Below the pieces are notes generated by a model, which saw only the letters and a list, made by a program, of their open reading frames with translations, did not search any database and had not been told where the DNA came from. Shown piece after piece: positions 31,173-44,613 of a stretch of 64,000 nt of DNA. Numbering within the stretch: position 1 is the first letter of the stretch; each line of letters begins with the position of its first letter. The stretch is from the NCBI GenBank assembly GCA_964409875.1, contig CAYPEN010000002.1, positions 142,607 to 206,606 of the forward strand, written 5' to 3'. Made by a program: the position numbers and the translations under genes. Source of the DNA: an uncultured Gammaproteobacteria bacterium. GTDB lineage: Bacteria; Patescibacteriota; Microgenomatia; Levybacterales; GWA1-39-11.

Positions 31173-31181
31173 ACTTTTTTG

Positions 31182-31298: not shown

Positions 31299-31383
31299 CG
31301 GAGGGTACAGGATTTGAACCTGTGTAGGGATTGCTCCCTCGGGATTTCGAGTCCCGCGCAATTGGCCACTATGCGAACCCTCC
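31299..31383 (-). tRNA. tRNA-Ser (anticodon CGA), type II
   Basis: Acceptor GGAGGGT/ACCCTCC, 3-bp D-stem, anticodon stem CGGGA/TCCCG with loop CTCGAAA, long variable arm, T-arm ACAGG-TTCAAAT-CCTGT. Confidence 0.75.
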
Positions 31384-31459
31384 GGAACAAACGTGGGGGT
31401 GGATTGCAGAATATTCTTAAAAAGAATTACATGTGAACCCTCCTCCGAACCTGTGTGTG

Positions 31460-31532
31460 CGCGCCCAAGTGGGGTCGAACCACCAACCTCAGGATCCGCA
31501 ATCCTGTGCTCTATCCATTAAGCTATGGGCGC
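31460..31532 (-). tRNA. tRNA-Arg (anticodon read as GCG)
   Basis: Acceptor GCGCCCA/TGGGCGC, anticodon stem CAGGA/TCCTG with loop TTGCGGA, T-arm GGTGG-TTCGACC-CCACT. Closely related to the Arg-CCG gene. Confidence 0.7.
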
Positions 31533-31608
31533 ACGATAAATCAACGAACCCAGTGATTATATCAACTTTGAGGCAAAAAACCTACCATTTGAAAAAGCCA
31601 AGCTCCGC

Positions 31609-32160
31609 TTAACGCTCGAGAGGAAAGTTACGAGCCAACCATTCACCGCTTTTTTCCATAAAGGTTGGTTTGACTACTTCACGAAATGGGATGTATCCTA
31701 TCAACACACGTCTGATGTGATCGACTGGGACATCACCCAACGAGATACGCAACTCTCCAGGAAACATGCTTTTTGCCCTAACAATTAAAACATCCACTCC
31801 GTCTATTTTCTTGAAATAAAAATCATACAACTCGTCCCAGATAAAAAAATGGTCTTCAACTTTGATCCCCTGTGTGCTTATTCGGTAATGAAAATTTTGA
31901 GGTGGGACTACCGCAAGCGCAATTGAGAAGAAATAGAGCGTGCCTACAACAAACATTAAAAGGTACTCTGAAAAAATAAAAAGAATTACCTCTATAAGAA
32001 ATACGATAAGAAGTCCCGTAAAATAGAATTCTTTCCCTTTTTTCCGAAACGGTCTTCCTGGAGCCGACCAAGAAATGAGTGTTTTAACATCGGGATAAGT
32101 GTGTCTGGCAGGATGATGCTCCATAGATACACTATGGCATATATTGAGGGTAAAAATCAA
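31609..32160 (-). CDS. Membrane protein with two TM helices and C-terminal bacterial PH-like domain (YdbS-like)
   Basis: Topology and size fit. No catalytic motif. Confidence 0.4.
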   Translation of the reverse strand: MIFTLNICHSVSMEHHPARHTYPDVKTLISWSAPGRPFRKKGKEFYFTGLLIVFLIEVILFIFSEYLLMFVVGTLYFFSIALAVVPPQNFHYRISTQGIKVEDHFFIWDELYDFYFKKIDGVDVLIVRAKSMFPGELRISLGDVPVDHIRRVLIGYIPFREVVKPTFMEKSGEWLARNFPLER

Positions 32161-32175
32161 GCTGAACTGAAGAAT

Positions 32176-33042
32176 TTAAAGCTCAAGAAGTGAAGTACTT
32201 TCTCCGTTTTTGTGTTCTTTTACGTATTGCAGATAGCGTTCGGTTGATGAAAGTCGTTTGTGTCCCAGTACTTTGGAGAGAAAAACTAAAGATACTCCCT
32301 GCTTAAGGTGATGTGCTACAAATGTATGCCTCAAATCATTTATCTTTACATTTTCAATTCCTGCTTTTTTAAAATATCTTTCGACAGCATCTCGAATGTT
32401 TCTTACAAGAAATGGCCTACCGGTCTTTGTTACAAACACATGGGTGTCCTCCGTATTTGCACGGGTTTCCATATATCGCTTTAACGCTTCCTTTGCACGT
32501 CTATTCAGAGGGACCTCGCGTGATTCATGCCCTTCATATGGCCTTATATGAAGCGAATTTTCAGAAACATCTTCTACGCGAAGGTTGGCAAGTTCTCCGA
32601 TGCGAATACCAGTTTGTAGAAGAACTTCAATAATCGCATAGATTCTGGAATCGACAGATGCTGCATCTCTTAACGCACGGTATTCAAGAGGCGACAGCAT
32701 TCGAGGAGGATTAAGCTCATATTTTGGATGCTCAACAAGCAACGACGGGTCGTCCGTTACATATTCATTTACTTTTAAATAACGATAGAATGTCCGAGTT
32801 GAGTTAAGTTTTCGAGATAAAGATTTGGGGGTATAGCCTTCGTCTTTTAACTTTGTTAAGAACGCTTGAATATCCGTTCCGTTCACTTCATGGATGTTGT
32901 TTTTCTGAAGCGCTTCAAGAAATTCAATTAATTGCTCGACATCCTTGCCATATGCTAATATTGTCGCGGACGCTCTATTTTTAGATTTTAAAAAGTCCTG
33001 GAACTTTCCATGTGCGTCCCTAAGACGTAACTCATTTGCCAT
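32176..33042 (-). CDS. Tyrosine recombinase (XerC/XerD/phage-integrase family)
   Basis: N-terminal SAM-like core-binding domain. Catalytic box 'LRHTFVAHHLKQGVSL...LGHKRLSSTERYLQY' (R..H..R..Y). Confidence 0.85.
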   Translation of the reverse strand: MANELRLRDAHGKFQDFLKSKNRASATILAYGKDVEQLIEFLEALQKNNIHEVNGTDIQAFLTKLKDEGYTPKSLSRKLNSTRTFYRYLKVNEYVTDDPSLLVEHPKYELNPPRMLSPLEYRALRDAASVDSRIYAIIEVLLQTGIRIGELANLRVEDVSENSLHIRPYEGHESREVPLNRRAKEALKRYMETRANTEDTHVFVTKTGRPFLVRNIRDAVERYFKKAGIENVKINDLRHTFVAHHLKQGVSLVFLSKVLGHKRLSSTERYLQYVKEHKNGESTSLLEL

Positions 33043-33110
33043 AAATTTTTAATTAATGAGGTAAGCATGCCTTATCTCTAAATTAATTTGAGCCTATAAT
33101 ATCAGTAAAC

Positions 33111-33458
33111 ATGCGCTTTGTCAACACAAAATCAATCTTACTCCTAGGAATTGTACTCATTTTGCTATGGGTAATTAAAAATATCGCAACCTCAATTATT
33201 ACCTTAAGACAAAATAGCCATATAGTAACAACTCTTAAAGACCAGGAAGAGGAAGCAAAAAGAAAGAAACAGCTACTCCAACAACAACTCCATGTTGTTA
33301 ATACGCCTGAATTTATTGAAAGCCAGGCAAGAGAAAAATTAGGAATGGTAAAACCGGGAGAGCACATAGTACTTGCTCCTCCCCCGTCTCCAGCTCCACA
33401 AAAAACGAATAACGATACAGCCTCTAACTGGGAACGATGGTGGAATCTATTTTTTTAA
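33111..33458 (+). CDS. FtsB/DivIC-like septum formation initiator
   Basis: N-terminal TM, coiled coil, and the conserved 'PEFIESQAREKLGMVKPGE' motif. Confidence 0.6.
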   Translation: MRFVNTKSILLLGIVLILLWVIKNIATSIITLRQNSHIVTTLKDQEEEAKRKKQLLQQQLHVVNTPEFIESQAREKLGMVKPGEHIVLAPPPSPAPQKTNNDTASNWERWWNLFF

Positions 33459-33600
33459 AATTTGGTGCGGAGTAAGCAGGGCTTGCTCACGCAACACCCA
33501 TTTCATTCGTGTTGCGGGGCCTAGAAGAAATACGAACATACTTTCTAACCCGTAACGATTCAGTCATTATACCAAATTTAGCTTAATTATTCTTCTTTAA

Positions 33601-34788
33601 TTGCATTTAAAAAAGTCCTATACTGAGAACATGCCAACTGTAGCAATACTCAAGCAGAATATTGAGGACATTTTAAAACAGCAAGGCTATACTTTAAGCA
33701 CGAATGGTAGTTTTATTCTTCCTTCAAGCGATAGAGAATCTTGGAGACAGGCGCATTATATAGCAAGAACAGAACGCCTGTTAGCAAAAGAGAATTTTAT
33801 TCTAAAAGGTAGCAGAATAGCTCAAAAGTATTTTCTTGATGGGAAAGATTTAAATATTGAAAAAATTGAGCCTAAATTGATTGAAGTTGAAGCAGAAACT
33901 GAATGGGAAGATTTATTTAAGTGGTGGAACTTAACCTGGTGGAGCCTACCTTATGAGAAAGCTTACGGCAGACAAATGAGATTTGTTGTATGGGATAAAT
34001 ACCACAATGCGCCTATTGGTCTCATCGGCTTACAAAGCCCAATACTTAGTTGGAGTGTTAGGGATAAATTTCTAAATATTCCATATGAAACAAGAGATTA
34101 TTGGGTCAATCAATCTTTAAGTGCACAAAGAATTGGAGCACTACCCCCTTATAACGACATTCTCGGAGGCAAGCTTGTTTCACTCCTTATGACATCAGAC
34201 ACAGTCAGAAAAGCCTTTAATAAAAAGTATAAAAACAAGGCCACATTGTTAAAAAATAGAGAACTACCATCAAGGTTGCTGTTTATTACCACAACAGGAG
34301 CATATGGGAAAAGTAGTGTTTATCAACGCTTAAAATTTAACCAAGAGGTAATTGCAAAGTTTATTGGATTTACTCAAGGAAGTGGAACTTTTCACATTCC
34401 AAACGCATTGTTTGAAGACCTGGTAAAGTATATGCAAAAGAGAGGCTATCCTGTAGGAAGAGGCTATGGCAATGGACCGTCTCGCAAGCTTAGAATTATT
34501 GACCAAGCACTTCAGCTTTTAGGATTTGCAAACGGAGCAACTCATGGCATTAAGAGAGCAGTTTATTTATTCCCCATGGTAAGAAATTTAGATAACGTAA
34601 TACAACAAGACAAAAGGCCTCTATGGGCAAAAAGAAGCGAAGAAGATTTAACTGAATTCTGGAAAAATAGATGGGCGTTTCCACGAGCTGAAAGAAATCC
34701 TGCATATAAAACGTATGTTAGCAAGGACTTTTTAAGTGAAATTATGTATAATCTAGAGCAATATAGGGCGTTAAGTCCTACATTGTAA
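33601..34788 (+). CDS. Island protein of unknown function (395 aa), first gene of the HerA/NurA operon
   Basis: Long uninterrupted ORF with a Trp-rich segment 'WEDLFKWWNLTWWSLPYEKAYGRQMRFVVWDK'. No motif I can assign. A 3-nt gap separates it from the next gene. Confidence 0.5.
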   Translation: MHLKKSYTENMPTVAILKQNIEDILKQQGYTLSTNGSFILPSSDRESWRQAHYIARTERLLAKENFILKGSRIAQKYFLDGKDLNIEKIEPKLIEVEAETEWEDLFKWWNLTWWSLPYEKAYGRQMRFVVWDKYHNAPIGLIGLQSPILSWSVRDKFLNIPYETRDYWVNQSLSAQRIGALPPYNDILGGKLVSLLMTSDTVRKAFNKKYKNKATLLKNRELPSRLLFITTTGAYGKSSVYQRLKFNQEVIAKFIGFTQGSGTFHIPNALFEDLVKYMQKRGYPVGRGYGNGPSRKLRIIDQALQLLGFANGATHGIKRAVYLFPMVRNLDNVIQQDKRPLWAKRSEEDLTEFWKNRWAFPRAERNPAYKTYVSKDFLSEIMYNLEQYRALSPTL

Positions 34789-34791
34789 AGG

Positions 34792-35931
34792 ATGAACGAT
34801 TCCTCAAATAATGATACATTCGGGGATTTACCTCAAGCATTAGTAGAAGAACTTCTTGGTAAAAGTCAGGAAGTAGGCAATGCATTGTATTCTTCATTTA
34901 GTAATATTCAAAATCAGAAGAAAAAATTCAGAGAAGACTTGGAAAAGGGAAATATTCTAAAAAGAGAGGCTGACTATAGCGTATCTGTACCGCCTACGAC
35001 TTGTGGAATTGATGGCGCCTATGCAAAGGAGGAGCTTTTATCAGTAGATTTGCTGGCAGCAGCCGCCGTCGCTCTTGAAGGAATAACCCCACCGTCTGAA
35101 ACAAGATTTTGGGAGGGCCCTCATCACCAGGTAATCATACAGGAAGAAAAACACAATCCCGACACTAACACAATCTTACGGGCAATAATGATAGGAATGG
35201 AACAACAGCTTGCGGAAAAAGCACCTCACGATGTTGTATTCATAGACGGTTCTTTAACTACGCCGTTAATTTTTTTCAATCAAGCAATTAATAAAGCTGA
35301 AGAATCAGATGATAATAGAGAACTTTCTATCTCTAAAAAACTTTTTGAGGTTTTACCTGAATCCTTAGCTTCATATCGTAAAGTTTTAGGCAATTCTCGA
35401 ACTGATAAGCTCTGGGTAGGGATGCCAAAATATACCACAAACAGAGAGATTGGGCGAAGTATGAAATGGGACCAGTCCTATGATGATAGAGCCTTGTTAA
35501 CTCTACTGTTAGCACCCGGTGAATTAACGACTCCACTCCCTTTCCAAAAACCATCTCAACCATGGCATTTAACTTACAAGCCGTGCGAGAAAGATATACA
35601 AAGCATTAAGGACTCTCTGGGCGGGTTGCGAGTTATTTATTATAGACCTCATGTGTGGACTCCTGCTCTTAGAATAGAGTTAAACTCTCACACTGCAGCC
35701 AATGAGTATCAGCTTGGCATGGTTCTGCAAGCTGTTAAATTTCAATGTGCTACTGCAGGAATAATTGAACCTTATCCTTTGTATATAGCAGATAGAATGG
35801 TTAAGTCCTTAGGCACTGGTCTACCAGCATTTAGACAGGTGGTTACTCGACAGATGGCAGAAGATTATGATGGCGATATTGGTGAAGTGTTTTTTACTAT
35901 GCATGGATATAGGACAGAACGTTCAAAATAG
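34792..35931 (+). CDS. NurA-like nuclease (RNase H-fold) candidate
   Basis: Two 'DG' catalytic-type motifs, 'CGIDGAYA' and 'VVFIDGSLTTP', with an acidic 'IIQEEKH' stretch between them, spaced as in NurA. It is operonic with a HerA ATPase. Confidence 0.5.
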   Translation: MNDSSNNDTFGDLPQALVEELLGKSQEVGNALYSSFSNIQNQKKKFREDLEKGNILKREADYSVSVPPTTCGIDGAYAKEELLSVDLLAAAAVALEGITPPSETRFWEGPHHQVIIQEEKHNPDTNTILRAIMIGMEQQLAEKAPHDVVFIDGSLTTPLIFFNQAINKAEESDDNRELSISKKLFEVLPESLASYRKVLGNSRTDKLWVGMPKYTTNREIGRSMKWDQSYDDRALLTLLLAPGELTTPLPFQKPSQPWHLTYKPCEKDIQSIKDSLGGLRVIYYRPHVWTPALRIELNSHTAANEYQLGMVLQAVKFQCATAGIIEPYPLYIADRMVKSLGTGLPAFRQVVTRQMAEDYDGDIGEVFFTMHGYRTERSK

Positions 35932-35960
35932 ATGTATAATACAAAAAATAAAGATGAATT

Positions 35961-37736
35961 ATGAAAGATGATAAAAAAAATATAGAAGAAGTCCTTAAGG
36001 ATGCTGAGCGAATTGGAGTTATAGGCTCACCCTCCTCTACAAGTAAGCTTACGCTGGATATTTTAGGAAGTGCTGTAAACAAAAAACTTGTAGGAGAACT
36101 TGGTTTATTTTCATACACACAAGAAGGTAGCAAGAATTATGCAATGGGTCAAATTACTGAAGTTGAGCTTCATAACATTTGGCACCAAGACCCAACAATA
36201 AGAAGCCTTATAAGACAAAAAGGGAGCATTAACCCTGTAAGCGAACGCCAGGATACCCATATTGGACAGATGACAATTAGCGCAGTTTTTCAATCGGCGG
36301 GAGATAGTATTTTTGAACCAAGCATTTTAGGTACAATTCCCGCAACAGGAACTCCAATAAATATCGTGTCTGACGACATACTAAACACCATTCTTTCTGC
36401 ATATAAAGACGAAATCTTTTATTTAGGGAATGTGTATGGCTCTAAACCAAAGCTACCTATGTGGTTTAAGCATTTTGATTCTGGAAAAGGTGGCGCAGGA
36501 GAAGCCTATCATCTTGGTATATTTGGGAAAACTGGCTCTGGTAAGTCTGTTTTGGCAAAGATGACAATAATGGGATACGCAAGACATAAGCAAATGGGAA
36601 TATTCATTCTAGACCCTCAGGGTGAATTTTCAAAAGGACTTAAAGATGGTGTGACCTCAGACACAATGAAAACAATTCTATGCAAAGAGACATTAGAAAA
36701 AATGGAAAGAGAATATGTAGTATATGACCTTAACAACATTGCTCTCAGTAGGTGGTCGCTTTTTGCTCAATTTTTAATAGAATTTAACTTTTTCTTTGAG
36801 CTCGGAATTAAATCCTCAGATTATCAAAAAATAGTTGCTGAAGACATAGAAGATTTTTGTAGAAGCAATTCAGCTTTAAAGCTATCTCAGCTCGATAATA
36901 ATGCATTAGCAAAAGTATTGGAACATTTAGATGCAAATATTCATCGTGTATACGCTGGAAAGCAATCAGATGGTGCAAATAGAGTGAAAGAATACATTGC
37001 AGAATGCCTTGAAGCTATAAAGAATAATACAGATAATAGGTTAGTTAATATTTGGACAAAAGTAGGTAAGCTTTTTGATAATAGTGGAGGCAAGAAAAAT
37101 CCAAAAGACATTGTAAACGAGGCAATAAAAGGAGGTACTAGCACGAGAAAACTTGTCTCGATTGACCTTTCTCAAAAACCATCTGACATTTCACCTTATG
37201 TATGGGACGAAAAAATAAAACCACTTATCATTGATAACTTTCTGAGCGACTTAGTACAAGCAGCAGAATACGCGTACAGAGATGATAAAAGCTTAAATAC
37301 TCTTGTTGTAATTGATGAAGCCCATAGACTTGCTCCAAGAGGAAGTTTAGAAAATGAGAAAAAAGAAAAAATACGCTCTACCCTTGTAGATGCGGTAAGA
37401 ACAACAAGAAAATATGGATTGGGCTGGTTGTTTATCAGCCAAACACTATCTAGTTTAGATAAGGACATAATTGAACAATTAAGAATCAACTTTTTTGGAT
37501 TTGGTTTGTCTATGGGTACAGAATTCCAGTCTTTAAGAGAGCTTGCTGGTGGCGACCCTGCTGCACTAAAATTGTATCAATCTTTTAGAGACCCACATAG
37601 CGCATTCGATAACAATCTACGCGAGTATGCGTTTATGTCATTGGGACCAGTTTCACCCCTCTCTTTTGCAGGCACACCCCTATTCCTATCCGTATTTACA
37701 TCCCCTGAGGTTTTCTTAAAGGAGAATAATCTATAA
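35961..37736 (+). CDS. HerA-family hexameric ATPase/helicase
   Basis: N-terminal HAS-barrel-like region. 'HLGIFGKTGSGKSVL' is the HerA HxxIxGxTGSGKS motif. Walker B 'VVIDEAHRLAP'. 'GLGWLFISQTLSSLD' is sensor-like. Confidence 0.8.
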   Translation: MKDDKKNIEEVLKDAERIGVIGSPSSTSKLTLDILGSAVNKKLVGELGLFSYTQEGSKNYAMGQITEVELHNIWHQDPTIRSLIRQKGSINPVSERQDTHIGQMTISAVFQSAGDSIFEPSILGTIPATGTPINIVSDDILNTILSAYKDEIFYLGNVYGSKPKLPMWFKHFDSGKGGAGEAYHLGIFGKTGSGKSVLAKMTIMGYARHKQMGIFILDPQGEFSKGLKDGVTSDTMKTILCKETLEKMEREYVVYDLNNIALSRWSLFAQFLIEFNFFFELGIKSSDYQKIVAEDIEDFCRSNSALKLSQLDNNALAKVLEHLDANIHRVYAGKQSDGANRVKEYIAECLEAIKNNTDNRLVNIWTKVGKLFDNSGGKKNPKDIVNEAIKGGTSTRKLVSIDLSQKPSDISPYVWDEKIKPLIIDNFLSDLVQAAEYAYRDDKSLNTLVVIDEAHRLAPRGSLENEKKEKIRSTLVDAVRTTRKYGLGWLFISQTLSSLDKDIIEQLRINFFGFGLSMGTEFQSLRELAGGDPAALKLYQSFRDPHSAFDNNLREYAFMSLGPVSPLSFAGTPLFLSVFTSPEVFLKENNL

Positions 37737-37955
37737 TTATTCAATTAAATCACCAATGTTCACGCCTAGTGCAACAGAAATTTTATATATAGTTGACAAT
37801 TTAGGGTCTCGGTGACCCATCTCAATCTCATTAACTGTAGTTAAATCCATTCCAATATCTCCTGCAAGGTCTTCTTGCGACAGTTTATTTTTATTTCTTA
37901 ATTCACGAACCTTATTGCCAAACTCCCTTTTTACAGCCTCATCTGAGATTGTCAT
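37737..37955 (-). CDS. XRE-family helix-turn-helix transcriptional regulator
   Basis: 'LRNKNKLSQEDLAGDIGMDLTTVNEIEMGHRDPKLSTIYKISVALGVNIGDL' is a typical Cro/C1 HTH. Confidence 0.8.
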   Translation of the reverse strand: MTISDEAVKREFGNKVRELRNKNKLSQEDLAGDIGMDLTTVNEIEMGHRDPKLSTIYKISVALGVNIGDLIE

Positions 37956-37965
37956 ATATTGTGTT

Positions 37966-38009
37966 TATGCCAAATTTCCTATAAAATGTCTTTGGCATAC
38001 ATGCCAAAT
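37966..38009. promoter_or_regulatory. Operator-like palindrome TATGCCAAA-N16-TTTGGCATA plus a third half-site ATGCCAAAT
   Basis: Perfect 9-bp inverted repeat at 37966-37974 / 37991-37999 and a third copy at 38001-38009. They sit in the divergent intergenic region between the XRE HTH gene and the zinc-ribbon gene. Confidence 0.5.
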
Positions 38010-38014
38010 AATGA

Positions 38015-38392
38015 ATGATGTTTTGCAATAATTGCGGTAAGGAACTAAGTGCAGAAAGCAGATTTTGTTCGAACTGTGGAACATCTATCCCTATAACAGA
38101 TAACTACAAGAAAAAATCCTCGAATATTACATTTGAAGCAATAAAACTAACTTCTAAAATCACCCTTGCGCCTGTCACCATCCCCTTTAGTATTCTGAAG
38201 TGGAGTCTCGGAATCAGAACTTTAAAGTGTCCTCGCTGCAGCAATAAAAAAATAAATAAAATGAAACCAGGCTGGGCAGAAAGTGCGATACCTGGTTTTG
38301 CACTTTTAGCTTTAGGGCCTTTAGGTCTTTTAGCAGGGCGTCCAAAAACCTTGTTCGTTTGCAAGCAATGCGGTTTCTCATGGGAAAGATAA
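38015..38392 (+). CDS. Double zinc-ribbon membrane protein
   Basis: 'CNNCGKEL...CSNCG' and 'CPRCS...CKQCG' Cys4 pairs flank a hydrophobic segment. Confidence 0.5.
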   Translation: MMFCNNCGKELSAESRFCSNCGTSIPITDNYKKKSSNITFEAIKLTSKITLAPVTIPFSILKWSLGIRTLKCPRCSNKKINKMKPGWAESAIPGFALLALGPLGLLAGRPKTLFVCKQCGFSWER

Positions 38393-38627
38393 GTAAGCTT
38401 GAGTAAGGGTTTTCATTTGTAATTTTTCCTATTTTTTTAGACTGAACTTTTGAAAAACCATTATGTGGCCAAAAACTCATTACGTCTATGCTAAAGCACT
38501 TGCATAATAGATTCTAATTGGAGGGGAATATTTAACCGTCGAATGTATATTTTCTATATAAAATACCATTCATAAACGCGCTTTTTTTAAGTTTTTCCTT
38601 AAAAACTGATATAGTTTATATATAGTA

Positions 38628-38656
38628 TTGACACAAATGTCTAATTGACTTTAAAT
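38628..38656 (+). promoter_or_regulatory. Sigma70-like promoter TTGACA-N17-TTAAAT
   Basis: -35 at 38628-38633 and -10 at 38651-38656, in an ORF-free AT-rich region. Confidence 0.35.
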
Positions 38657-38662
38657 CGATAA

Positions 38663-38766
38663 GATTTAAAATATACTTGTAAGCACGTCTCGGCGCCTAT
38701 CCATTGGAGCTGAGGACTTATCCAAAAGTTCAGAGACTGTGAGCGAAAGCTCGCGGTCTTTTTTTA
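38663..38766 (+). ncRNA. Candidate ~100-nt small RNA or 5' leader ending in an intrinsic terminator
   Basis: No ORF on either strand. A promoter lies upstream. The 3' end carries a GAGAC-...GAGC-GAAA-GCTC...-GTCT stem-loop followed by a T7 run. Confidence 0.3.
38733..38766 (+). terminator. Rho-independent terminator-like hairpin (GNRA tetraloop) + U-tract
   Basis: 'gagactgtgagcgaaagctcgcggtcttttttt'. Confidence 0.5.
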
Positions 38767-38773
38767 TGGCTTT

Positions 38774-39052
38774 ATGAATGATGAATTAGACATATTCGAA
38801 ACAAAGGATAAACAATTTACTCCATATCTGTTTATCCAACCTGACGTTAAGTTTTTAGGAACAAGAATCCAAGATTCCACTGTATTCTTTCGCTTCTCTC
38901 CTTCTCTCAGATGTAAAACCCTCTTAAATCTGTTTATCAGTAAGCAAGCACCACCTGTTCAAGGAAAGAGTTTGTTGGATGCGCTTGAAAGCTACAGAGA
39001 CTTAATTTTTGAGATGAAGATGAAGATGAAGGAAAAACATTATGAACCATGA
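38774..39052 (+). CDS. Hypothetical small protein (island cassette)
   Basis: 92 aa. Its stop overlaps the next ORF's start. Confidence 0.35.
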   Translation: MNDELDIFETKDKQFTPYLFIQPDVKFLGTRIQDSTVFFRFSPSLRCKTLLNLFISKQAPPVQGKSLLDALESYRDLIFEMKMKMKEKHYEP

Positions 39053-39503
39053 TTATTTAACAAAACAGGAACAAATTGAAATAAACCAAAGTCTTGCAGA
39101 ATCTTACAATTACAAAGATTCATATACAAAGGGTGATGACTTTGTCTTAGAAGGTGGAAATGATACTCGTAGATTAAAAGTAAATAGAGAGTTAACCCAA
39201 AGAAAAATAGAAGCTATTAATGCATTAAAAGAGTGTCGTGCCAGTACACCACCAGAAATAGTGTCAGATTTACTTTCACAGCTTTTTGAAAACTCTGATA
39301 CTGAACCAGGCTGGTGGCTTTACGTTGCCCAGCATTGGCCACCTAATCCCATAAATCGAGTAATAAAACTCATGCTCAAACTTCATCAAGGGAAATGGAT
39401 AACTTTCAGAGACCCAGCGAAATACTTCACATCCGAAATAAAACATAGGAAGCAAAGAATGATTTTTCAGAAAAAAAGAAGGGAGAAGCATGAAAAAGCT
39501 TAA
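39042..39503 (+). CDS. Hypothetical protein (island cassette)
   Basis: 153 aa with a basic C-terminus. Overlapping start/stop couples it to its neighbours. Confidence 0.4.
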   Translation: MNHDYLTKQEQIEINQSLAESYNYKDSYTKGDDFVLEGGNDTRRLKVNRELTQRKIEAINALKECRASTPPEIVSDLLSQLFENSDTEPGWWLYVAQHWPPNPINRVIKLMLKLHQGKWITFRDPAKYFTSEIKHRKQRMIFQKKRREKHEKA

Positions 39504-39753
39504 AAACTACACCCTTAAAGTCTACGAAAATGATGAAGTTGGTATGGTAGTGCGTACTCACTCAAAACGCTTAATTCTCACACGTTTACGCTCAATAAAC
39601 TGGACAAACAAGGCAATTAAAACCTACTTCAGAGTGTCTTATGGCAAGAAGAATGATACTCATGGAAAACTCAGCACTTTCTACAACGATGGTGATTTTT
39701 ATAACAAAGAAGACTTGGATTGGGCTTTTGAAGCTTTTGACTATGAAGATTGA
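39490..39753 (+). CDS. Hypothetical small protein (island cassette)
   Basis: 87 aa. Overlaps the upstream gene by 14 nt. Confidence 0.35.
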   Translation: MKKLKNYTLKVYENDEVGMVVRTHSKRLILTRLRSINWTNKAIKTYFRVSYGKKNDTHGKLSTFYNDGDFYNKEDLDWAFEAFDYED

Positions 39754-39928
39754 CGGATTACACCATCTAGATAATAAAGCTATCGATGAGTTTACTCAGC
39801 TCTATTACAAGGAGTATGGAATTAAACTCAATAAACAAGAGGCTACGGAGCTTGGAAACAGATTTATACGTTTTATGAGAGCTATATATGCGGATGCCCT
39901 ACCAAAGTCAAAAAGGGTTGACAAGTAG
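39743..39928 (+). CDS. Hypothetical small protein (island cassette)
   Basis: The start is trimmed to the internal Met 'MKIDGLHHLD' (ATGAAGATTGA overlaps the upstream stop). The longer ORF 39641.. would overlap the upstream gene by 113 nt in another frame. Confidence 0.3.
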   Translation: MKIDGLHHLDNKAIDEFTQLYYKEYGIKLNKQEATELGNRFIRFMRAIYADALPKSKRVDK

Positions 39929-39964
39929 AGTAAGGAAGTCCTACGATGAAGCTATCTTGAGGCT

Positions 39965-41698
39965 ATGAACGAACAAAAAAATATAAAATACTTTGGTTAT
40001 ATACGTAAAAGCTCTGAGGACAATCGCGAACGACAAGCGGCATCCCTTCCTGAGCAGAGGTATGCCTTAGATTTATTAAAAACTAAGCTTAATCTGAAAA
40101 TTGTAGACGTACTTGATGAATCTAGAACAGCTCATGAACCAGGAAGACCCACTTTCAACTCCATGTTAGAGAAGATATCAAACGGTGAAGCCAACGCGAT
40201 TCTCACATGGCACCCTAATAGGTTATCTCGAAACCCTGTTGATACAGGTCACTTGCTTTATCTCATGGACGCAGGAAAACTAGTTGAAATCCGCACTCCT
40301 TCACGTGCCTATCATAATACGCCTGAGGATAAGTTTATGTTGGGACTTGAATTTGGTATTAGCAAGAAAGACTCGGACGACAAATCCATTGTTGTAGAAC
40401 GTGGGCTCGAAGGGAAAGCAAGGAAAGGATGGAGACCTGGAGTTGCTCCTCAAGGCTATCTAAATGATAAGGGAACCGAAAGTGGAGAACGTAAAATATA
40501 CTCTGACAACGACCGCCTACCACATATCAAAAACATATTCTCGCTGTTTTACAATGGAACACCTGTAATTGAAATTCATCGAATTGCCCACGAAGATTGG
40601 CATTACCTTACGCGTCAACATAAAAGAATGGGAGGTAAACCACTTTCAATAAGCATGATATATTCAATACTGACAAACCCATTTTACTGTGGGAAATTCG
40701 AATACCCTCTTGGAAGCGGAAAATGGTATGAAGGAGCTCATGAGAAGGTGGTAAATGAAGAAGTATTCAGTGAAATACAAGTTAAATTAGGACGTAGAAG
40801 CCCTTACAAGGTGAAGCATAACGGTTTTGCCTACAACGGGAGCGCAATTCGTTGTGGAGATTGCGGTTCAAGCATTGTTGCTGAACAAAAAAAGCAGTGC
40901 ATTTGTTCTAACTGTAAAACTAAATTTTCTATATCACATAAAAATCCAGACACCTGTATTAAATGTGGTTCTTTAATCGAGAGCATGTCAAACCCTAAGT
41001 TGCTTCATTACATCTATTATCGATGTGGTAGAAAAAAGAATCCAAAATGCCTACAAAAAGCAGTACAACTAACAGAACTTGAGAGGCAAATTGACAAAAA
41101 ACTAACTCAAATTGAAATTTCTCCAGTGTTTGTAGACTGGGCCATAAAACAAATTCAAAAAATGAATGAGAGTAATAAAGATTTTGAAGAAGCAACATTT
41201 AAAGGATTAAAGGCAGCGCACGATAAGTGCAGAATAAAACTTAATAATTTATTACAACTAAAGATATCACCAGAAAACGTAAATGGTAGTCTACTATCAG
41301 ACTCAGAATACAAAACCCAAAAAGAAACTTTGGAATCTGAGCTTAAGATTATTGAAAAACAACTTGAAGACACTGACAATCAAATGCTTCAATCAAATAG
41401 CGACACAGAAAAGGCTTTTAATTTTGTTTCCAGAGCTAGAGAACGATTTTCTCTGCCAGATATCAAGATTAAGCGTGATATATTCTTGGGATTAGGGTTG
41501 CACCTAACACTTAAGGACAAAATAATCGATTTTGACAGTCCAAAGTATATTAAATCTCTTGAAAAAATGAAGAAAGAAGCTCCAATTATTGCAGAGAGGG
41601 TCGCACCTGAAAAAGAGATTGAATTGAAAGCAAAAATGGAGGAAAAGTTTGCGACAATTCCAAGTGTGTTGCGGAGTAAGGAGTTGAACCTTATCTAG
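39965..41698 (+). CDS. Large serine recombinase (resolvase N-domain + recombinase domain + zinc ribbon + coiled coil)
   Basis: Catalytic N-terminus 'YFGYIRKSSEDNRERQAASLPEQ', a recombinase domain, a Cys-rich zinc-ribbon ('CGDCGSS...CSNCKTKF...CIKCGS') and a long coiled-coil C-terminus. Confidence 0.9.
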   Translation: MNEQKNIKYFGYIRKSSEDNRERQAASLPEQRYALDLLKTKLNLKIVDVLDESRTAHEPGRPTFNSMLEKISNGEANAILTWHPNRLSRNPVDTGHLLYLMDAGKLVEIRTPSRAYHNTPEDKFMLGLEFGISKKDSDDKSIVVERGLEGKARKGWRPGVAPQGYLNDKGTESGERKIYSDNDRLPHIKNIFSLFYNGTPVIEIHRIAHEDWHYLTRQHKRMGGKPLSISMIYSILTNPFYCGKFEYPLGSGKWYEGAHEKVVNEEVFSEIQVKLGRRSPYKVKHNGFAYNGSAIRCGDCGSSIVAEQKKQCICSNCKTKFSISHKNPDTCIKCGSLIESMSNPKLLHYIYYRCGRKKNPKCLQKAVQLTELERQIDKKLTQIEISPVFVDWAIKQIQKMNESNKDFEEATFKGLKAAHDKCRIKLNNLLQLKISPENVNGSLLSDSEYKTQKETLESELKIIEKQLEDTDNQMLQSNSDTEKAFNFVSRARERFSLPDIKIKRDIFLGLGLHLTLKDKIIDFDSPKYIKSLEKMKKEAPIIAERVAPEKEIELKAKMEEKFATIPSVLRSKELNLI

Positions 41699-41825
41699 GA
41701 GATTATGAGCCTCCTGTGCAGCCGTACACTACCCCGCGATACAGACAAATAGTATACTTCAAATTAGCTTCAAATGCAACCACAAGACTTGTTTTTCACA
41801 CGATTTTCTAGTAGAATACAATCTT

Positions 41826-42524
41826 ATGAAGCGTGAAAAGCTTGCAGCAGAAAAAAGAACAATACTTGGTAAAAAAGTGAAACATTTGCGGCGCGAAGGA
41901 ATTCTTCCCGCTAATATGTTCGGCAAGGGCATAAAAAGCACGTCTCTACAGCTCCCACTTAAAGATTTCCAACATGTTTTCAGTATCGTGCATGAGACAG
42001 GACTTGTAGATCTTACGGTTGATGGAGAAACACATCCGGTTCTTATTCAAAATGTTCACATTCAGCCAATCACTCATATTCCCCTTCACGCTGATTTCTT
42101 TAAGGTAAATCTGAAGGAAAAAGTGAAAGCAACTATTCCGATTGTAGCAGTTGGCGAACCTAAGGCAGTAAGTGACAAAATCGGTGTTCTTCTCCAACCA
42201 CTTTCTGAAGTAGAGGTTGAAGCATTACCGGCAGATCTTCCAGAACATATTGAAGTAAACGTTGAGAAGCTCGCAAATATTGATGACAGCATATCGTTGG
42301 GCGATGTGAAAATTCCTGCAGGCATTGAACTCATGGCAGAGCCTGGCGAAATGGTTTTCCGAATTGCGGAACTTGTATCTGAGGCTGCAGAAGAATTGGC
42401 AGCTGAGGAAGAAGCTGCTGCTGAAGCGGCAAGCGCTGAAGGAGAAACGCAACCTTCAGAAGGAGAATCGGAAGCTGAAACACCCGCCGCATCTGATGAG
42501 CCTTCCGAGAACAAAACGGAATAA
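41826..42524 (+). CDS. rplY: 50S ribosomal protein L25 / general stress protein Ctc, with acidic Ala/Glu-rich C-terminal tail
   Basis: 'KRTILGKKVKHLRREGILPANMFGKG' L25 N-terminal motif. Confidence 0.85.
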   Translation: MKREKLAAEKRTILGKKVKHLRREGILPANMFGKGIKSTSLQLPLKDFQHVFSIVHETGLVDLTVDGETHPVLIQNVHIQPITHIPLHADFFKVNLKEKVKATIPIVAVGEPKAVSDKIGVLLQPLSEVEVEALPADLPEHIEVNVEKLANIDDSISLGDVKIPAGIELMAEPGEMVFRIAELVSEAAEELAAEEEAAAEAASAEGETQPSEGESEAETPAASDEPSENKTE

Positions 42525-42528
42525 TTTT

Positions 42529-43026
42529 TTAACCTCTCACTATCAAGTGTTTTAATTCCCTAGCATCTTTAAAAAGCGGATCTATTTGGATTGCCTGGTC
42601 GATATAATGCAATGCGTCAGTAGTCTTTCCTACATTCAAAGCGCTAACTGATGCGTTATACAAAATGTCAGGAATATTTGGAAACTGCGATGCAACCCCG
42701 CTCCAATAATGAAATTGCCTGAGATTTGCCTCATATTCCCTCTTCGCGTGCAATGCCTTCTGATCAAGGAACACCAAGATTTGTAGCAATACGCCAGCAC
42801 AAATGACAAGTGCTATAAAAAGAAGCGCACGAAGCTGAGAAGCAACTTGTCTATTAATTATGTTTCCTTTTATTTGTGGAGATAAACCGCTAATTCTACG
42901 GATAAAATTATGCATGTACTGCATTTTAGTAGTATTTGTAATTATCCGCAAGAACAATAGGCTACCAAGGAAGGAGCAGAACAATAAGTGAAATCGTAAG
43001 AAAAACAAATTCCAGAACAAGCTCAA
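42529..43026 (-). CDS. Hypothetical membrane-anchored protein with TPR-like C-terminus
   Basis: ORF with hydrophobic helices. 'ALHYIDQAIQIDPLF' is TPR-like. The start is uncertain. Confidence 0.3.
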   Translation of the reverse strand: MSLFWNLFFLRFHLLFCSFLGSLLFLRIITNTTKMQYMHNFIRRISGLSPQIKGNIINRQVASQLRALLFIALVICAGVLLQILVFLDQKALHAKREYEANLRQFHYWSGVASQFPNIPDILYNASVSALNVGKTTDALHYIDQAIQIDPLFKDARELKHLIVRG

Positions 43027-43181
43027 TTGTTATTGCAGTATGCACACCAACAGGAAGAAAAATTTGAAGCTTATTCTCCATTTTCTCTGTTTCTTTCGCA
43101 TAAAAAAGGTGGGCCACAATGATAAGTACGGCCAAAACAACAAACAGTATTTTAATTCCCCAAACAATACTCCGGATAGTT

Positions 43182-43847
43182 TCAGTTGAAAGTATTTCCA
43201 TAATTTGAGTCTCCCAAAAAACGATACTTATTTTTTTTCAATTCTTTAATCCATAATAGCTGTTGGGGTTGCGTTATTTGTTTTTGGAAGTTAGGTAACG
43301 CCTGATGAATTTGTGCAGAGAGCATATTTGCAATTGCCCTGGGGGAGCGTATGCCGCGAATTACGAATTCTTCCTTATGCGTTGGCCTATCAAAAGTTAT
43401 CGCAACATTTCCAATGCCAATAAGTTCAGGAATTATTCCATACATTTCGACATCAATTTCAGTGCACCGTATTTGATCAAGTAAAACAGAATTTATTGCA
43501 TGAGAGAGAAGCGGACTATAGTGTACTTCGATAAGTTGCTTATTGGTTGCAATATAGAGATGGTAACACCAATGAATTAATTCTCTTACAGCTATAATAT
43601 TGGTAAGAACAACAATCAATAGAAAACCGTTTATTGCAAGAGGGATGCTTTTCAAAAAAATAGTAAATATAAAACTTAGAGCTATTGCTATTACGAGCCC
43701 ACTTATTGCTTGTCTTACCAATCTAAGAGTCAATGGGAGCCAATGTTCACGGCATGCAAATATCAACTCTTCGTCATCGAACAATTTGAACTTTGCTATT
43801 TGAACATCTGTAAGCCTATCATGAAGGAAGAATTCTTTAGATCTCAT
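43182..43847 (-). CDS. Membrane protein with bacterial PH-like domain (YdbT/YdbS-like)
   Basis: N-terminal soluble segment, two TM helices and a C-terminal bPH-like region. Confidence 0.4.
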   Translation of the reverse strand: MRSKEFFLHDRLTDVQIAKFKLFDDEELIFACREHWLPLTLRLVRQAISGLVIAIALSFIFTIFLKSIPLAINGFLLIVVLTNIIAVRELIHWCYHLYIATNKQLIEVHYSPLLSHAINSVLLDQIRCTEIDVEMYGIIPELIGIGNVAITFDRPTHKEEFVIRGIRSPRAIANMLSAQIHQALPNFQKQITQPQQLLWIKELKKNKYRFLGDSNYGNTFN

Positions 43848-43959
43848 CCAAAAAAATAATATCAGTATCTTATTCCCTAGTCCGTAATTTCTCTTACACT
43901 TTTAATGTGAAGTTGCTTACACTTTTCTTACCTGGTATACTTCAGAAAAGGGCAGCATA

Positions 43960-44613
43960 ATGATTTCTACCTCAAACGAACTCTTAAAAGAGTTTTTTGC
44001 AAGCGCCAAGCCCTCCTACTTTAGAAAGGGCGATGTTGTACTTCGGATAGGAGATGTAAGGGGAGGGGCGTATTATCTCAAAAAAGGCTATATTAAAGAT
44101 TCCAGTGTTTCTGCCGACGGAAGAGAATTTATACTCTTCATATTCCAGCCGACTGACGTTTTTTCCTATAACTGGATATTCAACCAAACTCCAAACGAGC
44201 ATTCTTTTAGAGCTATCTCGGACTGTGTAGTATATGAAAAGAGCAGGGAAGGTTTTTTGCTGTTTCTAGAACAGCATCCAGATGTATTTCTTATGATAAC
44301 TCAACGCATAGTGCGGCGGCTGAATGGTCTTATGCAACGGATGGAAAATTTAGCATTTGATAATGCATTAAAAAAAGTGGGTTCAATATTATGCATCCTT
44401 GGAGAAAGGTTTGGAAAAAAAACAGAGAAAGGAATTGTTATACCTATTCCTCTCACCCAACAGGACATTGCCAATTTAATTGGACTGAGCCGGGAAACAA
44501 CAAGCATTGAAATAAAAAAAATTATGGAAATGAATATCTTAACCCGCTCTTCAGGCCTCTATGTTATAACGAAACTTAAGGAGCTTCAAAAAATTTCTTC
44601 TCTTGTAAGGTAA
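43960..44613 (+). CDS. Crp/Fnr-family transcriptional regulator
   Basis: cNMP-binding beta-roll followed by the C-terminal HTH 'QQDIANLIGLSRETTSIEIKK'. Confidence 0.8.
   Translation: MISTSNELLKEFFASAKPSYFRKGDVVLRIGDVRGGAYYLKKGYIKDSSVSADGREFILFIFQPTDVFSYNWIFNQTPNEHSFRAISDCVVYEKSREGFLLFLEQHPDVFLMITQRIVRRLNGLMQRMENLAFDNALKKVGSILCILGERFGKKTEKGIVIPIPLTQQDIANLIGLSRETTSIEIKKIMEMNILTRSSGLYVITKLKELQKISSLVR

What the first reader, a model, noticed from the sequence alone, without database searches (positions are those of the whole stretch)
33568..41773. ~8.2 kb island bounded by a 19-21 bp imperfect direct repeat, with a terminal large serine recombinase
The sequences 'tataccaaatttagcttaa' (33568-33586) and 'tatacttcaaattagcttcaa' (41753-41773) flank a block of non-housekeeping genes. 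These are the HerA/NurA operon, an XRE HTH with operator, a zinc-ribbon protein, overlapping small ORFs, and a 577-aa large serine recombinase whose stop lies 55 bp from the right repeat. The flanking genes are core (ftsB-like on the left, rplY on the right). This is the geometry expected for attL/attR of a serine-integrase-mobilised element. The repeats are AT-rich and short, so chance similarity is possible.
Basis: seen in the sequence. Interest (0 to 1): 0.6.

Follow-up and report, generated by a model that had tools for sequence, protein, structure and literature searches.

The report
Serine-integrase island in a tRNA-Met gene

Summary
The island and its large serine recombinase (LSR) are real. 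The proposed 19-21 bp repeat is not the boundary.

**True junctions.** They are an exact 9-bp direct repeat, GTGTTGCGG, at 33509-33517 and 41666-41674. This repeat is the 3' end of a minus-strand tRNA-Met(CAT) gene (41669-41738) that overlaps the LSR stop.

**Evidence.**
- The attB junction I predicted occurs in a related metagenome contig, where divIC, the tRNA and rplY are adjacent with no island.
- In a second sample, contigs of the same genome break exactly at the outer edges of the two cores.
- Nine relatives carry the same core followed by a conserved element-side arm.

**Family rule.** In 15 of 16 related loci the LSR gene runs antisense into a tRNA 3' end; the sixteenth contig ends there. 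Read across the reconstructed attP, the LSR frame continues into a conserved 19-28-aa tail with wobble-position variation.

**Consequence.** Integration splits the gene.

**Cargo.** A DruA-NurA-HerA cassette that recurs across phyla next to restriction systems. It is not a described defence system.

**Verdict.** A new variant of a known kind. What the tail swap does is unknown.

The parts
33509..33517 (+). attL core GTGTTGCGG (left copy of the 9-bp exact direct repeat)
   Evidence: Occurs only twice in the window. Contig L003 from SRR11845634 ends exactly at 33517. Synteny with L006 switches here.
33518..33586 (+). P' arm: displaced last 22 codons plus stop of the LSR gene (GLEEIRTYFLTRNDSVIIPNLA*).
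   Evidence: Joining 41674 to 33518 gives a 592-aa ORF with its stop at 33584-33586. The same tail peptide is conserved at 15 attL-type sites and is contiguous in P0021. Wobble-position diversity is 0.51 against 0.19, p=0.0017.
33631..34788 (+). DruA-like protein (DUF4338), 385 aa; first gene of the cargo cassette
   Evidence: Pfam PF14236 at 226 bits. PADLOC DruA at 314 bits.
34792..35931 (+). NurA-like nuclease, 379 aa
   Evidence: Pfam PF09376 at 25 bits against a cutoff of 21. It holds the same position in the cassette in other phyla.
35961..37736 (+). HerA-like ATPase, 591 aa
   Evidence: Pfam PF01935 (DUF87) at 60.8 bits. Matches PADLOC HerA models.
37737..37955 (-). XRE-family HTH regulator, 72 aa. 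A palindrome, TTTGGCATACATGCCAAA, lies at 37991-38008 in the divergent intergenic region.
   Evidence: HTH_3 at 55.8 bits. Inverted repeat I2. Homologous XRE genes occur in 5 of 10 elements.
38015..38392 (+). Zinc-ribbon protein, 125 aa
   Evidence: Zn_Ribbon_1 at 36 bits.
38774..39753 (+). Three overlapping small ORFs (92, 153 and 87 aa) of unknown function. The 153-aa ORF has homologues in 3 of 10 elements.
39743..39928 (+). Conserved 61-aa protein immediately upstream of the LSR. Candidate accessory or directionality factor (inferred from position only).
   Evidence: Homologues occur in 9 of 10 delimited elements, directly upstream of the LSR in 6. No Pfam or PHROG match.
39965..41698 (+). 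Large serine recombinase, integrated-state ORF of 577 aa. Codons up to 41674 belong to the element. The last 7 codons plus stop (41675-41698, SKELNLI*) are antisense tRNA DNA.
   Evidence: Resolvase at 59.9 bits, Recombinase at 33 bits, Zn_ribbon_recom at 19.7 bits. More than 640 homologues. Tail analysis.
41666..41674 (+). attR core GTGTTGCGG. It covers the last 6 nt of the tRNA plus 3 nt of 3' trailer.
   Evidence: Contig L002 from SRR11845634 starts exactly at 41666. Synteny with L006 resumes here.
41669..41738 (-). tRNA-Met(CAT), initiator-like (C1:A72 mismatch), no encoded CCA. This is the integration target. It is intact and 100% identical to the copy at the empty site.
   Evidence: ARAGORN. 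Rfam RF00005 at 42.4 bits. Alignment with L006.
33464..33497 (+). Chromosomal hairpin outside the element. It contains a second copy of the tRNA 3'-end sequence (TGCGGAGTAAG, 33466-33476).
   Evidence: The 11-mer occurs only at 33466 and 41670. It is homologous to one of three such units at the empty site in L006.
41753..41773 (+). It is chromosomal DNA between the tRNA 5' end and rplY and is not part of the element.
   Evidence: It lies outside attR and is partly conserved in L006.

Best explanation
**What it is.** An 8,157-bp integrative element, counting one copy of the core. It sits in the 3' end of an initiator-like tRNA-Met(CAT) gene between divIC and rplY, in a Microgenomates-group (Patescibacteria) genome.

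**How it got there.** Its large serine recombinase recombined an element site (attP) with the tRNA 3' end (attB). The shared core is GTGTTGCGG, and across the family the common part is GTTGCGG. The mature tRNA sequence is unchanged. Only its 3' trailer changes.

**Unusual feature.** attP lies inside the 3' end of the recombinase gene.
- On an uninterrupted P-O-P' junction (free circle or tandem array) the gene encodes 592 aa, ending ...IPSVLR-GLEEIRTYFLTRNDSVIIPNLA.
- After integration the last 22 codons are stranded at the far left end (33518-33586).
- The gene then ends with 7 residues read from antisense tRNA DNA (577 aa).

**Family rule.** The LSR genes running into a tRNA 3' end is a rule across this LSR clade in Patescibacteria. 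The conserved P' arm and tail were found at sites in nine of the GTDB loci and in L023.

**Cargo.** A DruA(DUF4338)-NurA-HerA cassette, inferred to be an anti-phage module. The backbone is an XRE regulator, a conserved 61-aa protein and the LSR.

**Shown:** the junctions, the empty site, the split ORF and purifying selection on the tail.

**Inferred:** that the tail swap changes recombinase activity or stability, and that the cargo defends against phages.
For: 1. **Target gene.** tRNA-Met at 41669-41738 (-) overlaps the LSR stop.
2. **Core repeat.** The exact 9-mer occurs only at 33509 and 41666 in 64 kb.
3. **Empty site.** The attB junction predicted from the two outer flanks (TCATTCGTGTTGCGGAGTAAGGAG) matched exactly one metagenome contig, L006. 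That contig is syntenic with window 27686-33517 and then 41666-42716, has an identical tRNA, and has no island.
4. **Assembly breaks.** In SRR11845634 the same genome (100% identity) is broken into contigs ending at 33517 and starting at 41666. They overlap the island contigs by 30 nt (33488-33517 and 41666-41695). This is the de Bruijn geometry expected when B-O-P' and P-O-B' coexist with another B-O-...-O-B' allele. In SRR11845619 the locus is contiguous.
5. **Relatives run into tRNAs.** In 15 of 16 GTDB loci the LSR ORF runs antisense into a tRNA 3' end; the sixteenth, L019, has its contig end just past the core. The targets are:
   - tRNA-Met in 12 (6 of them carry a group I intron);
   - tRNA-Phe, tRNA-Asp and tRNA-Ser once each.
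6. **Matching left ends.** Nine relatives have an attL within 10 kb: GTTGCGG(GG) followed by a conserved P' arm. Element sizes are 4.2-10.6 kb.
7. **Conserved tail.**
   - P' arms translated in the LSR frame give G(L/I)xE(I/L/V)R(T/N)(Y/W)(F/Y)L... with synonymous Leu and Arg codon changes.
   - Third-position diversity is 0.51 against 0.19 (p=0.0017).
8. **Contiguous tails in nature.**
   - Database protein P0021 carries the tail contiguously (HLEEIRTYFLTSPTPAFIPDLR).
   - Three JGI contigs carry P-O-P' junctions with no tRNA.
9. **Cargo and backbone** annotation.
Against: - No circular attP junction of this particular element was found. The viral contigs pattern scan returned 0 hits, and the SRR11845634 contig geometry shows no branch at the inner edges of the cores.
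- The alternative allele in SRR11845634 was inferred from contig ends, not seen. It could be a different element at the same site rather than an empty site.
- The first ~30 nt of the P' arm is also expected to be a recombinase-binding half-site, so DNA-level constraint contributes to its conservation.
- AlphaFold gives the C-terminal 50 residues pLDDT below 50, so there is no structural clue to what the tail does.
- Dyad-symmetry analysis did not locate the crossover dinucleotide.
- The window's element has no recognisable replication or transfer genes.
Confidence: 0.85

Rival explanations
1. One reading: the 19-21 bp imperfect AT-rich repeats (33568-33586 and 41753-41773) are attL and attR, and the element is the 8.2 kb between them.
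For: The repeats exist. Local similarity between the two intergenic regions is marginally above shuffles, 2.5-3.6%.
Against:
- Contig ends in SRR11845634 fall at the 9-bp cores.
- The left repeat encodes the conserved tail end (I/F)IP(N/D)L, which is seen contiguously in P0021 and in other elements.
Confidence: 0.02
2. The att sites are the outer 11-bp repeat TGCGGAGTAAG (33466-33476 and 41670-41680). The displaced tRNA 3' end with its CCA lies at the left, and the element supplies a new tRNA 3' end.
For: The exact 11-mer occurs only at these two places. On the minus strand the left copy is followed by CCA, so it looks like a displaced tRNA 3' end.
Against: - The left copy and its hairpin are present at the empty site in L006, together with two further copies, so they are chromosomal.
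- The sequence to its right (33477-33508) is conserved in L006.
- No family-type P' arm follows it.
- Contig ends are at 33517, not 33476.
Confidence: 0.03
3. The junctions are as I describe, but the ORF running across attP has no functional role. The tail is read only because attP abuts the gene, and its conservation reflects the recombinase-binding half-site, not the protein.
For: - LSR attP half-sites span about 20-25 bp, which overlaps the best conserved part of the tail.
- Integrated-state tails are variable and evidently tolerated.
- AlphaFold confidence for the tail is low.
Against: - Variation is codon-periodic: third position 0.51, positions 1 and 2 0.19. Leu codons vary among CTA, TTG, TTA and CTC, and Arg between AGA and CGA. 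A DNA-binding constraint would not produce this.
- The frame stays open for 12-40 codons (19-28 in 13) in all 15 sites.
- A distal motif, P.FIP(D/N)L, lies 45-66 nt from the core, beyond a usual half-site, and is conserved in about half of them.
Confidence: 0.3
4. The island is a fixed, no longer mobile remnant (a domesticated defence island), not an active element.
For: - No attP circle was detected.
- No replication or transfer genes are recognisable in this copy.
- The LSR lacks its native tail while integrated.
Against: - Both att cores, the P' arm and the LSR ORF are intact.
- Two samples with 100% identical flanks differ in assembly continuity exactly at the cores, which indicates a presence/absence or occupancy polymorphism within one population.
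- Sister elements are numerous and diverse.
Confidence: 0.15

Closest known systems
Large serine recombinase (serine integrase) integrative elements and prophages, such as phiC31, Bxb1, A118, SPbeta and SCCmec/Ccr
   Same: - Same three-domain architecture: Resolvase catalytic domain, Recombinase domain, and a zinc ribbon with a long coiled coil.
- Short identity core between attL and attR.
- Recombinase gene at the end of the element.
- Small accessory genes alongside.
   Different: - The target is a tRNA gene 3' end. Serine integrases more commonly use attB sites inside protein-coding genes (statement in PMC6109161).
- The recombinase ORF crosses attP, so its C-terminus differs between the free and integrated states. 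I found no description of this for LSRs.
SSV-type ('suicidal', class I) archaeal tyrosine integrases
   Same: The att site lies within the integrase gene, so integration partitions the gene. The integration module is compact (review PMC8371274).
   Different: - Those are tyrosine recombinases of archaeal viruses and plasmids. They are split in the body of the gene, and the review suggests the split integrase may be inactive.
- Here a serine recombinase in bacteria loses only its last 22 residues.
- The review describes suicidal integrases as exclusive to archaea.
Integration-dependent immunity of mycobacteriophages such as BPs and Brujita (Broussard et al. 2013, as summarised in PMC6109161 and PMC4557955)
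   Same: attP lies near the 3' end of an element gene. The free and integrated forms therefore encode proteins with different C-termini, and integration acts as a genetic switch.
   Different: - There the split gene is the repressor, the lost tail is an ssrA-like degradation tag, and the integrase is a tyrosine recombinase.
- Here the split gene is the serine recombinase itself.
- The function of the tail here is unknown.
tRNA-targeting genomic islands with tyrosine integrases
   Same: - Integration into a tRNA 3' end that leaves the tRNA intact.
- Integrase next to the tRNA.
- Tandem remnants at the site (L013-L017).
- Accessory (defence) cargo.
   Different: - Different recombinase family and chemistry.
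- The identity block is very short (7-10 bp), not the usual 15-50 bp tRNA segment.
HerA-based defence systems (Sir2-HerA, DUF4297-HerA) and Druantia (DruA)
   Same: The cargo pairs a HerA ATPase with a nuclease partner and a DruA/DUF4338 protein. It sits in mobile and defence-island contexts.
   Different: - The partner is NurA, not Sir2 or DUF4297.
- None of the other Druantia genes (DruB-E or DruH) were detected.
- PADLOC returns single-protein DruA and HerA hits and no hit for the NurA-like protein.
- Anti-phage activity is untested.

Membership tests
Large serine recombinase (serine integrase) | N-terminal resolvase catalytic domain with the catalytic serine motif | tested here: met
   PF00239 at 59.9 bits, residues 10-155. 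The N-terminus reads YFGYIRKSSED. Y12, R14, S16 and S17 are invariant in 39 homologues.
Large serine recombinase (serine integrase) | Recombinase domain followed by a zinc-ribbon domain with an embedded coiled coil | tested here: met
   PF07508 at 33 bits. PF13408 at 19.7 bits, below its cutoff of 25.3. Eight invariant Cys columns. AlphaFold model of homologue P0021 has long helices at 386-433 and 445-496 after the ribbon.
Large serine recombinase (serine integrase) | Recombines short attP and attB sites at a central dinucleotide, is unidirectional, and is reversed by a directionality factor | not testable with these tools
   Only the 7-9 bp identity block was defined. The dyad analysis was inconclusive. 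The conserved 61-aa upstream protein is a candidate factor by position only.
Site-specific integrative element / genomic island at a tRNA gene | Direct repeats at both ends that correspond to the tRNA 3' end, with the tRNA left intact | tested here: met
   GTGTTGCGG at 33509 and 41666. The tRNA scores 42.4 bits and is identical to the empty-site copy.
Site-specific integrative element / genomic island at a tRNA gene | An empty site in related genomes with the junction exactly at the repeat | tested here: met
   The predicted junction 24-mer was found in WBZR01007483.1. Synteny holds on both sides and the island is absent.
Site-specific integrative element / genomic island at a tRNA gene | Excised circular form (attP junction) detectable | tested here: inconclusive
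   No hit for this element's attP junction in viral contigs. No inner-edge branch in SRR11845634. P-O-P' junctions do exist for related elements in L023, L044 and L045.
SSV-type 'suicidal' integrase | att site located inside the integrase ORF, so that integration splits the gene | tested here: met
   The ORF is 592 aa across attP and 577 aa when integrated. The tail is stranded at 33518-33586.
SSV-type 'suicidal' integrase | Tyrosine recombinase of archaeal viruses or plasmids | tested here: not met
   The enzyme is a serine recombinase. Its relatives are in Patescibacteria MAGs.
Integration-dependent immunity | attP inside the repressor gene, with integration removing a C-terminal degradation tag | tested here: not met
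   The split gene is the recombinase. The XRE gene (37737-37955) is intact and lies far from both att sites. The tail ends ...IPNLA, and its role as a tag is untested.
Druantia defence system | DruA together with the large DruE helicase (types I-III also need DruB-D, DruM/F/G or DruH) | tested here: not met
   Only DruA matches (314 bits). No DruE or other Druantia model hits any of the ten island proteins.
HerA-effector defence systems (Sir2-HerA, DUF4297-HerA) | HerA ATPase encoded next to a Sir2 or DUF4297 effector | tested here: not met
   HerA is present, but its neighbour is NurA (PF09376) plus DruA. There is no Sir2 or DUF4297 match.

The most novel reading that the evidence does not exclude
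The split recombinase gene is a built-in directionality or commitment switch. Only the P-O-P' form makes the full-length 592-aa enzyme, whose conserved C-terminal helix is needed for (or regulates) attP x attB integration. The integrated form makes a tail-less enzyme with different activity or stability. This would be a bacterial, serine-recombinase counterpart of archaeal 'suicidal' integrases. It would operate across a large clade of Patescibacteria elements that have diversified to several tRNA targets.
Probability: 0.3. Interest if true: 0.75.

Novelty: new variant of a known kind. Interest (0 to 1): 0.55.

Why it matters
1. **Corrected boundaries.** The analysis fixes the island's ends and gives experimentally usable attB, attP, attL and attR sequences for a large, unstudied LSR clade of more than 640 members. 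Such enzymes are actively mined as genome-engineering tools.
2. **Unreported arrangement.** In the literature I could search, serine integrases were not reported to carry attP inside their own gene. The review I read calls this arrangement exclusive to archaeal tyrosine integrases. If the tail swap alters activity, it is a new and simple way to couple recombinase function to integration state.
3. **Mobile elements in Patescibacteria.** The analysis documents small integrative elements, tandem accretion at one tRNA and within-population polymorphism in Patescibacteria.
4. **Candidate defence cassette.** The cargo, DruA-NurA-HerA, recurs across phyla next to restriction systems and recombinases. 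It is a good candidate for a new HerA-based defence system.

Tried and rejected
- **First att model (rejected).** My first model, placed the att sites at the outer 11-mer TGCGGAGTAAG. The L006 empty site and the contig ends rule it out.
- **attB pattern in GTDB genomes.** 0 hits.
- **attP junction pattern in IMG/VR.** 0 hits.
- **LSR search in IMG/VR.**
  - With the single protein: no relatives.
  - With an alignment: only distant LSRs at 39% identity or less. I did not follow these up.
- **Exact-protein look-up of the window's DivIC-family (ftsB-like) protein.** Not on record.
- **Dyad-symmetry scan of reconstructed attP and attB sites.** No clear axis, so the crossover dinucleotide is undefined beyond lying within GTTGCGG.
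- **Promoter and terminator scans at both borders.** Nothing above shuffle expectation. My idea that the right repeat is the tRNA promoter is unsupported.
- **AlphaFold model of the full-length homologue P0021.** The C-terminal 50 residues have low confidence, so the model is uninformative about the tail.
- **Whole-window Rfam gathering scan.** It missed the target tRNA. Only a local scan found it.
- **Literature.**
  - For LSR genes spanning attP or targeting tRNAs in Patescibacteria: nothing specific.
  - For a DruA-NurA-HerA defence system: nothing specific.
- **Cluster look-up for organism names.** It returned none.

Full report
**1. The observation**

The gene content is essentially as described.
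- A three-gene operon at 33631-37736 encodes a DruA/DUF4338 protein (PF14236, 226 bits; PADLOC DruA, 314 bits), a NurA-like protein (PF09376, 25 bits) and a HerA-like ATPase (PF01935, 61 bits).
- A divergent XRE regulator, a zinc-ribbon protein and several small ORFs follow.
- The last gene encodes a 577-aa large serine recombinase (LSR) with Resolvase, Recombinase and a sub-threshold Zn_ribbon_recom match.

The repeat itself is weak. It needs three gaps. The best local alignment of the two intergenic regions scores 15, against 10.3 +/- 1.8 in shuffles. That score is reached by 2.5% of shuffles and 3.6% of random real pairs.

**2.

ARAGORN finds a tRNA-Met(CAT) gene on the minus strand at 41668-41738. 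It overlaps the last 30 nt of the LSR ORF.
- Rfam's whole-window scan missed it. A local scan gives RF00005 at 42.4 bits over 41669-41738.
- It has the C1:A72 mismatch typical of bacterial initiator tRNAs and no encoded CCA.

The tRNA's last six bases plus three trailer bases, read on the plus strand as GTGTTGCGG (41666-41674), recur exactly at 33509-33517. These are the only two copies in the 64 kb on either strand. They are 8,157 bp apart.

**3. Test by empty site**

I joined the outer flanks across one core to predict attB (TCATTCGTGTTGCGGAGTAAGGAG).
- There was no hit in GTDB genomes.
- There was one exact hit among the metagenome contigs: WBZR01007483.1 (L006).

L006 comes from a related but not identical organism.
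- It is 70-79% identical in DNA and syntenic with window 27686-33517. It then continues directly at 41666-42716.
- It carries divIC, a ~140-bp spacer, the identical tRNA-Met, and rplY, with no island.
- The switch point is the 9-bp core.

**4. Test by assembly geometry**

The window is 100% identical to a Logan contig from SRR11845619, where the locus is contiguous. In SRR11845634 the same sequence, also 100% identical, is split into four contigs covering 30470-33517, 33488-39694, 39666-41695 and 41666-52524.
- The flank contigs stop exactly at the outer edges of the two cores. They overlap the island contigs by 30 nt, which is k-1 for k=31.
- This is what a de Bruijn graph gives if B-O is followed by two alternatives and O-B' is preceded by two alternatives. 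That means an allele without this island coexists with the occupied allele.
- I could not retrieve the short bridging contig. The alternative allele is therefore inferred, and it could be a different element rather than an empty site.

**5. Family evidence**

The LSR has more than 640 homologues at E<1e-10. Nearly all the named ones come from Patescibacteria or Microgenomates MAGs. Sixteen GTDB loci were fetched.

In 15 of them the LSR ORF runs antisense into the 3' end of a tRNA gene.
- Six hit the same 71-nt tRNA-Met type. Five were called by ARAGORN and one (L014) was read directly from the sequence.
- Six hit a tRNA-Met whose anticodon loop carries a group I intron (RF00028, 52-77 bits).
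- The others hit tRNA-Phe (L011), tRNA-Asp (L021, 34% identity) and tRNA-Ser (L022, 36% identity).
- In the sixteenth, L019, the contig ends just after the core.

Nine loci have a matching left end within the 10-kb flank.
- It reads GTTGCGG(GG) followed by a conserved arm, ..cAaGAAATcAGAActTacTTtcTg.
- Element sizes are 4.2-10.6 kb.
- Identity blocks are 9-10 bp in eight of these loci and 20 bp in L012.
- The window's left junction, GTGTTGCGG-ggcctagaagaaatacgaaca, fits this consensus.
- Several loci carry two or three such left ends in tandem, so elements or their remnants accrete at this site.

**6. The recombinase gene crosses attP**

The conserved C-terminal motif F(A/S)xIP(S/T)(V/L)LR is encoded right up to the core (GTG TTG CGG = V-L-R).

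Joining P to P' in the window extends the frame to 592 aa. It ends ...VLR-GLEEIRTYFLTRNDSVIIPNLA, with the stop at 33584-33586.

The same reading of 15 P' arms gives G(L/I)xE(I/L/V)R(T/N)(Y/W)(F/Y)L.
- About half of them also carry a distal P.FIP(D/N)L motif.
- All are open for 12-40 codons, 19-28 in 13 of the 15.
- Variation is codon-periodic. Over the first ten codons, third-position diversity is 0.51 against 0.19 (Mann-Whitney p=0.0017; the sequences are not independent).
- Leu is encoded by CTA, TTG, TTA or CTC, and Arg by AGA or CGA.

Among the 120 listed homologues, most end LR-G*, LR-GRESRPA* or LR-SKESHLV*. These are antisense T-arm readings, which mark the integrated state.
- P0021 ends HLEEIRTYFLTSPTPAFIPDLR, and P0113 ends AMDAVRTYF....
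- P0021 and its twin P0241 sit on three JGI contigs (L023, L044, L045). These have no tRNA or chromosomal genes.
- On those contigs two element variants alternate, and LSR 3' ends run straight into the next element's P' arm.
- So P-O-P' junctions with a contiguous tail exist in nature.

**7. Mechanism**

*Shown.* This is site-specific insertion at the tRNA 3' end within GTTGCGG. The tRNA stays intact. The LSR gene is split, with a 22-aa tail exchanged for 7 tRNA-encoded residues.

*Inferred.*
- The LSR catalysed attP x attB recombination.
- The tail matters in the P-O-P' form, because it is under purifying selection.
- The conserved 61-aa protein (39743-39928) may be an accessory or directionality factor. 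It has homologues in 9 of 10 elements, directly upstream of the LSR in 6.

What the swap does is unknown. AlphaFold places a low-confidence helix (565-580, pLDDT mostly below 50) over the crossover-encoded residues of P0021. The first ~30 nt of P' is probably also a protein-binding half-site, so that stretch would be under dual constraint.

**8. Cargo and backbone**

Only the LSR, the 61-aa protein, XRE (5 of 10 elements) and a 153-aa ORF (3 of 10) recur across elements. The rest varies: a primase-helicase in L017, a Schlafen/AlbA_2 protein in L008 and DUF5677 in L012.

The DruA-like protein has more than 1,200 homologues, the 120 listed being 57-72% identical, across phyla. In three other contexts the DruA-NurA-HerA triad recurs in the same order.
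- In Omnitrophota it sits next to a type I HsdR gene.
- In another genome it sits next to a type IIG/ISP enzyme and a different LSR.
- In Paceibacterota it sits next to another LSR and an XRE gene.

No DruE or other Druantia component is present. I found no paper that describes the triad. I regard it as a candidate HerA-based defence cassette. This is inferred from context only.

**9. Comparison with known systems**

It is a member of the LSR family by domain content and conserved residues.

It works like a tRNA-targeting integrative island, but serine integrases more commonly use sites inside coding regions (PMC6109161).

An att site inside the integrase gene is the hallmark of archaeal SSV-type tyrosine integrases. 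A 2021 review calls these exclusive to archaea (PMC8371274).

A C-terminal swap on integration is the principle of integration-dependent immunity in mycobacteriophages. There it affects the repressor, not the integrase.

My literature searches found no LSR example. The library is incomplete, so prior description cannot be excluded.

**10. Verdict**

- The corrected anatomy is well supported (confidence about 0.85).
- The split LSR gene is a new variant of known principles.
- Its functional meaning is open.

Noticed in passing
L008 11752-11945, L009 11735-11935, L010 11735-11930, L012 11753-11938, L016 11758-11930, L018 4590-4782 (all minus strand): In six relatives the target tRNA-Met(CAT) gene carries a group I intron (RF00028, 52-77 bits) in the anticodon loop. 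ARAGORN does not call these tRNAs.
   Followed up: partly
window 33464-33497; L006 6272-6400: Between divIC and the tRNA there are hairpin units. Each contains a 13-16-nt copy of the tRNA 3' end (GTGTTGCGGAGTAAG), a loop and CTTGCTC..CAACAC. The window has one unit and the empty-site relative has three. They lack the LSR-family P' arm. Their origin is unexplained: they could be relics of other elements, terminators or duplications.
   Followed up: partly
L013 1422/2562; L014 1879/3069; L015 326/1127; L017 151/950/2591: Two or three attL-type sites (core plus P' arm with an open tail frame) lie in tandem, 0.8-1.6 kb apart, upstream of the resident element. This suggests serial accretion and decay of elements at the same tRNA.
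   Followed up: partly
L039 2793-6930; L040/L041 6001-10166; L042 6001-10166; L043 2310-6475: The DruA-NurA-HerA triad is a conserved, widely transferred three-gene cassette. It sits next to type I and type IIG/ISP restriction genes and next to unrelated LSRs. It is a candidate undescribed HerA-based defence system.
   Followed up: partly
L023 1-7128; L044 1-8992; L045 1-5692: Three JGI contigs close into an alternation of two element variants. One carries an SDH-protease/NfeD-like cargo, the other two unknown genes, and both have a signal-peptidase S26 gene. They are joined by P-O-P' junctions of a tRNA-Phe-type LSR (core TTGTGCCG). This could be a tandem array, a circular heterodimer or an assembly path through two circles.
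   Followed up: partly
window 32176-33042 (-): A XerC/D-like tyrosine recombinase (Phage_integrase plus SAM-like domains) lies just left of divIC. It is also present at the empty site in L006 (4989-5855), so it is chromosomal and not part of the island.
   Followed up: yes
window 37955-38010: The XRE/zinc-ribbon divergent intergenic region holds a near-perfect palindrome, TTTGGCATACATGCCAAA (37991-38008), and further TGCCAAA half-sites.
   Followed up: partly
window 39666-39694: In SRR11845634 the island is also broken internally: contigs 33488-39694 and 39666-41695 overlap by only 29 nt. The break is inside the small-ORF region upstream of the LSR. The cause is unknown; it could be low coverage or a variant.
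   Followed up: no
window 41669-41738: Rfam's gathering scan of the whole 64-kb window did not report this tRNA, although it scores 42.4 bits (cutoff 29) when a 300-bp region is scanned. This is a filter effect worth remembering in other windows.
   Followed up: yes
window 30359-31532 and L006 2746-4412: A cluster of five tRNA genes (Met, Ser, Arg, Ser, Arg) lies 2-3 kb left of the island. In L006 three of them are on the opposite strand, which indicates a local inversion between the two genomes.
   Followed up: no
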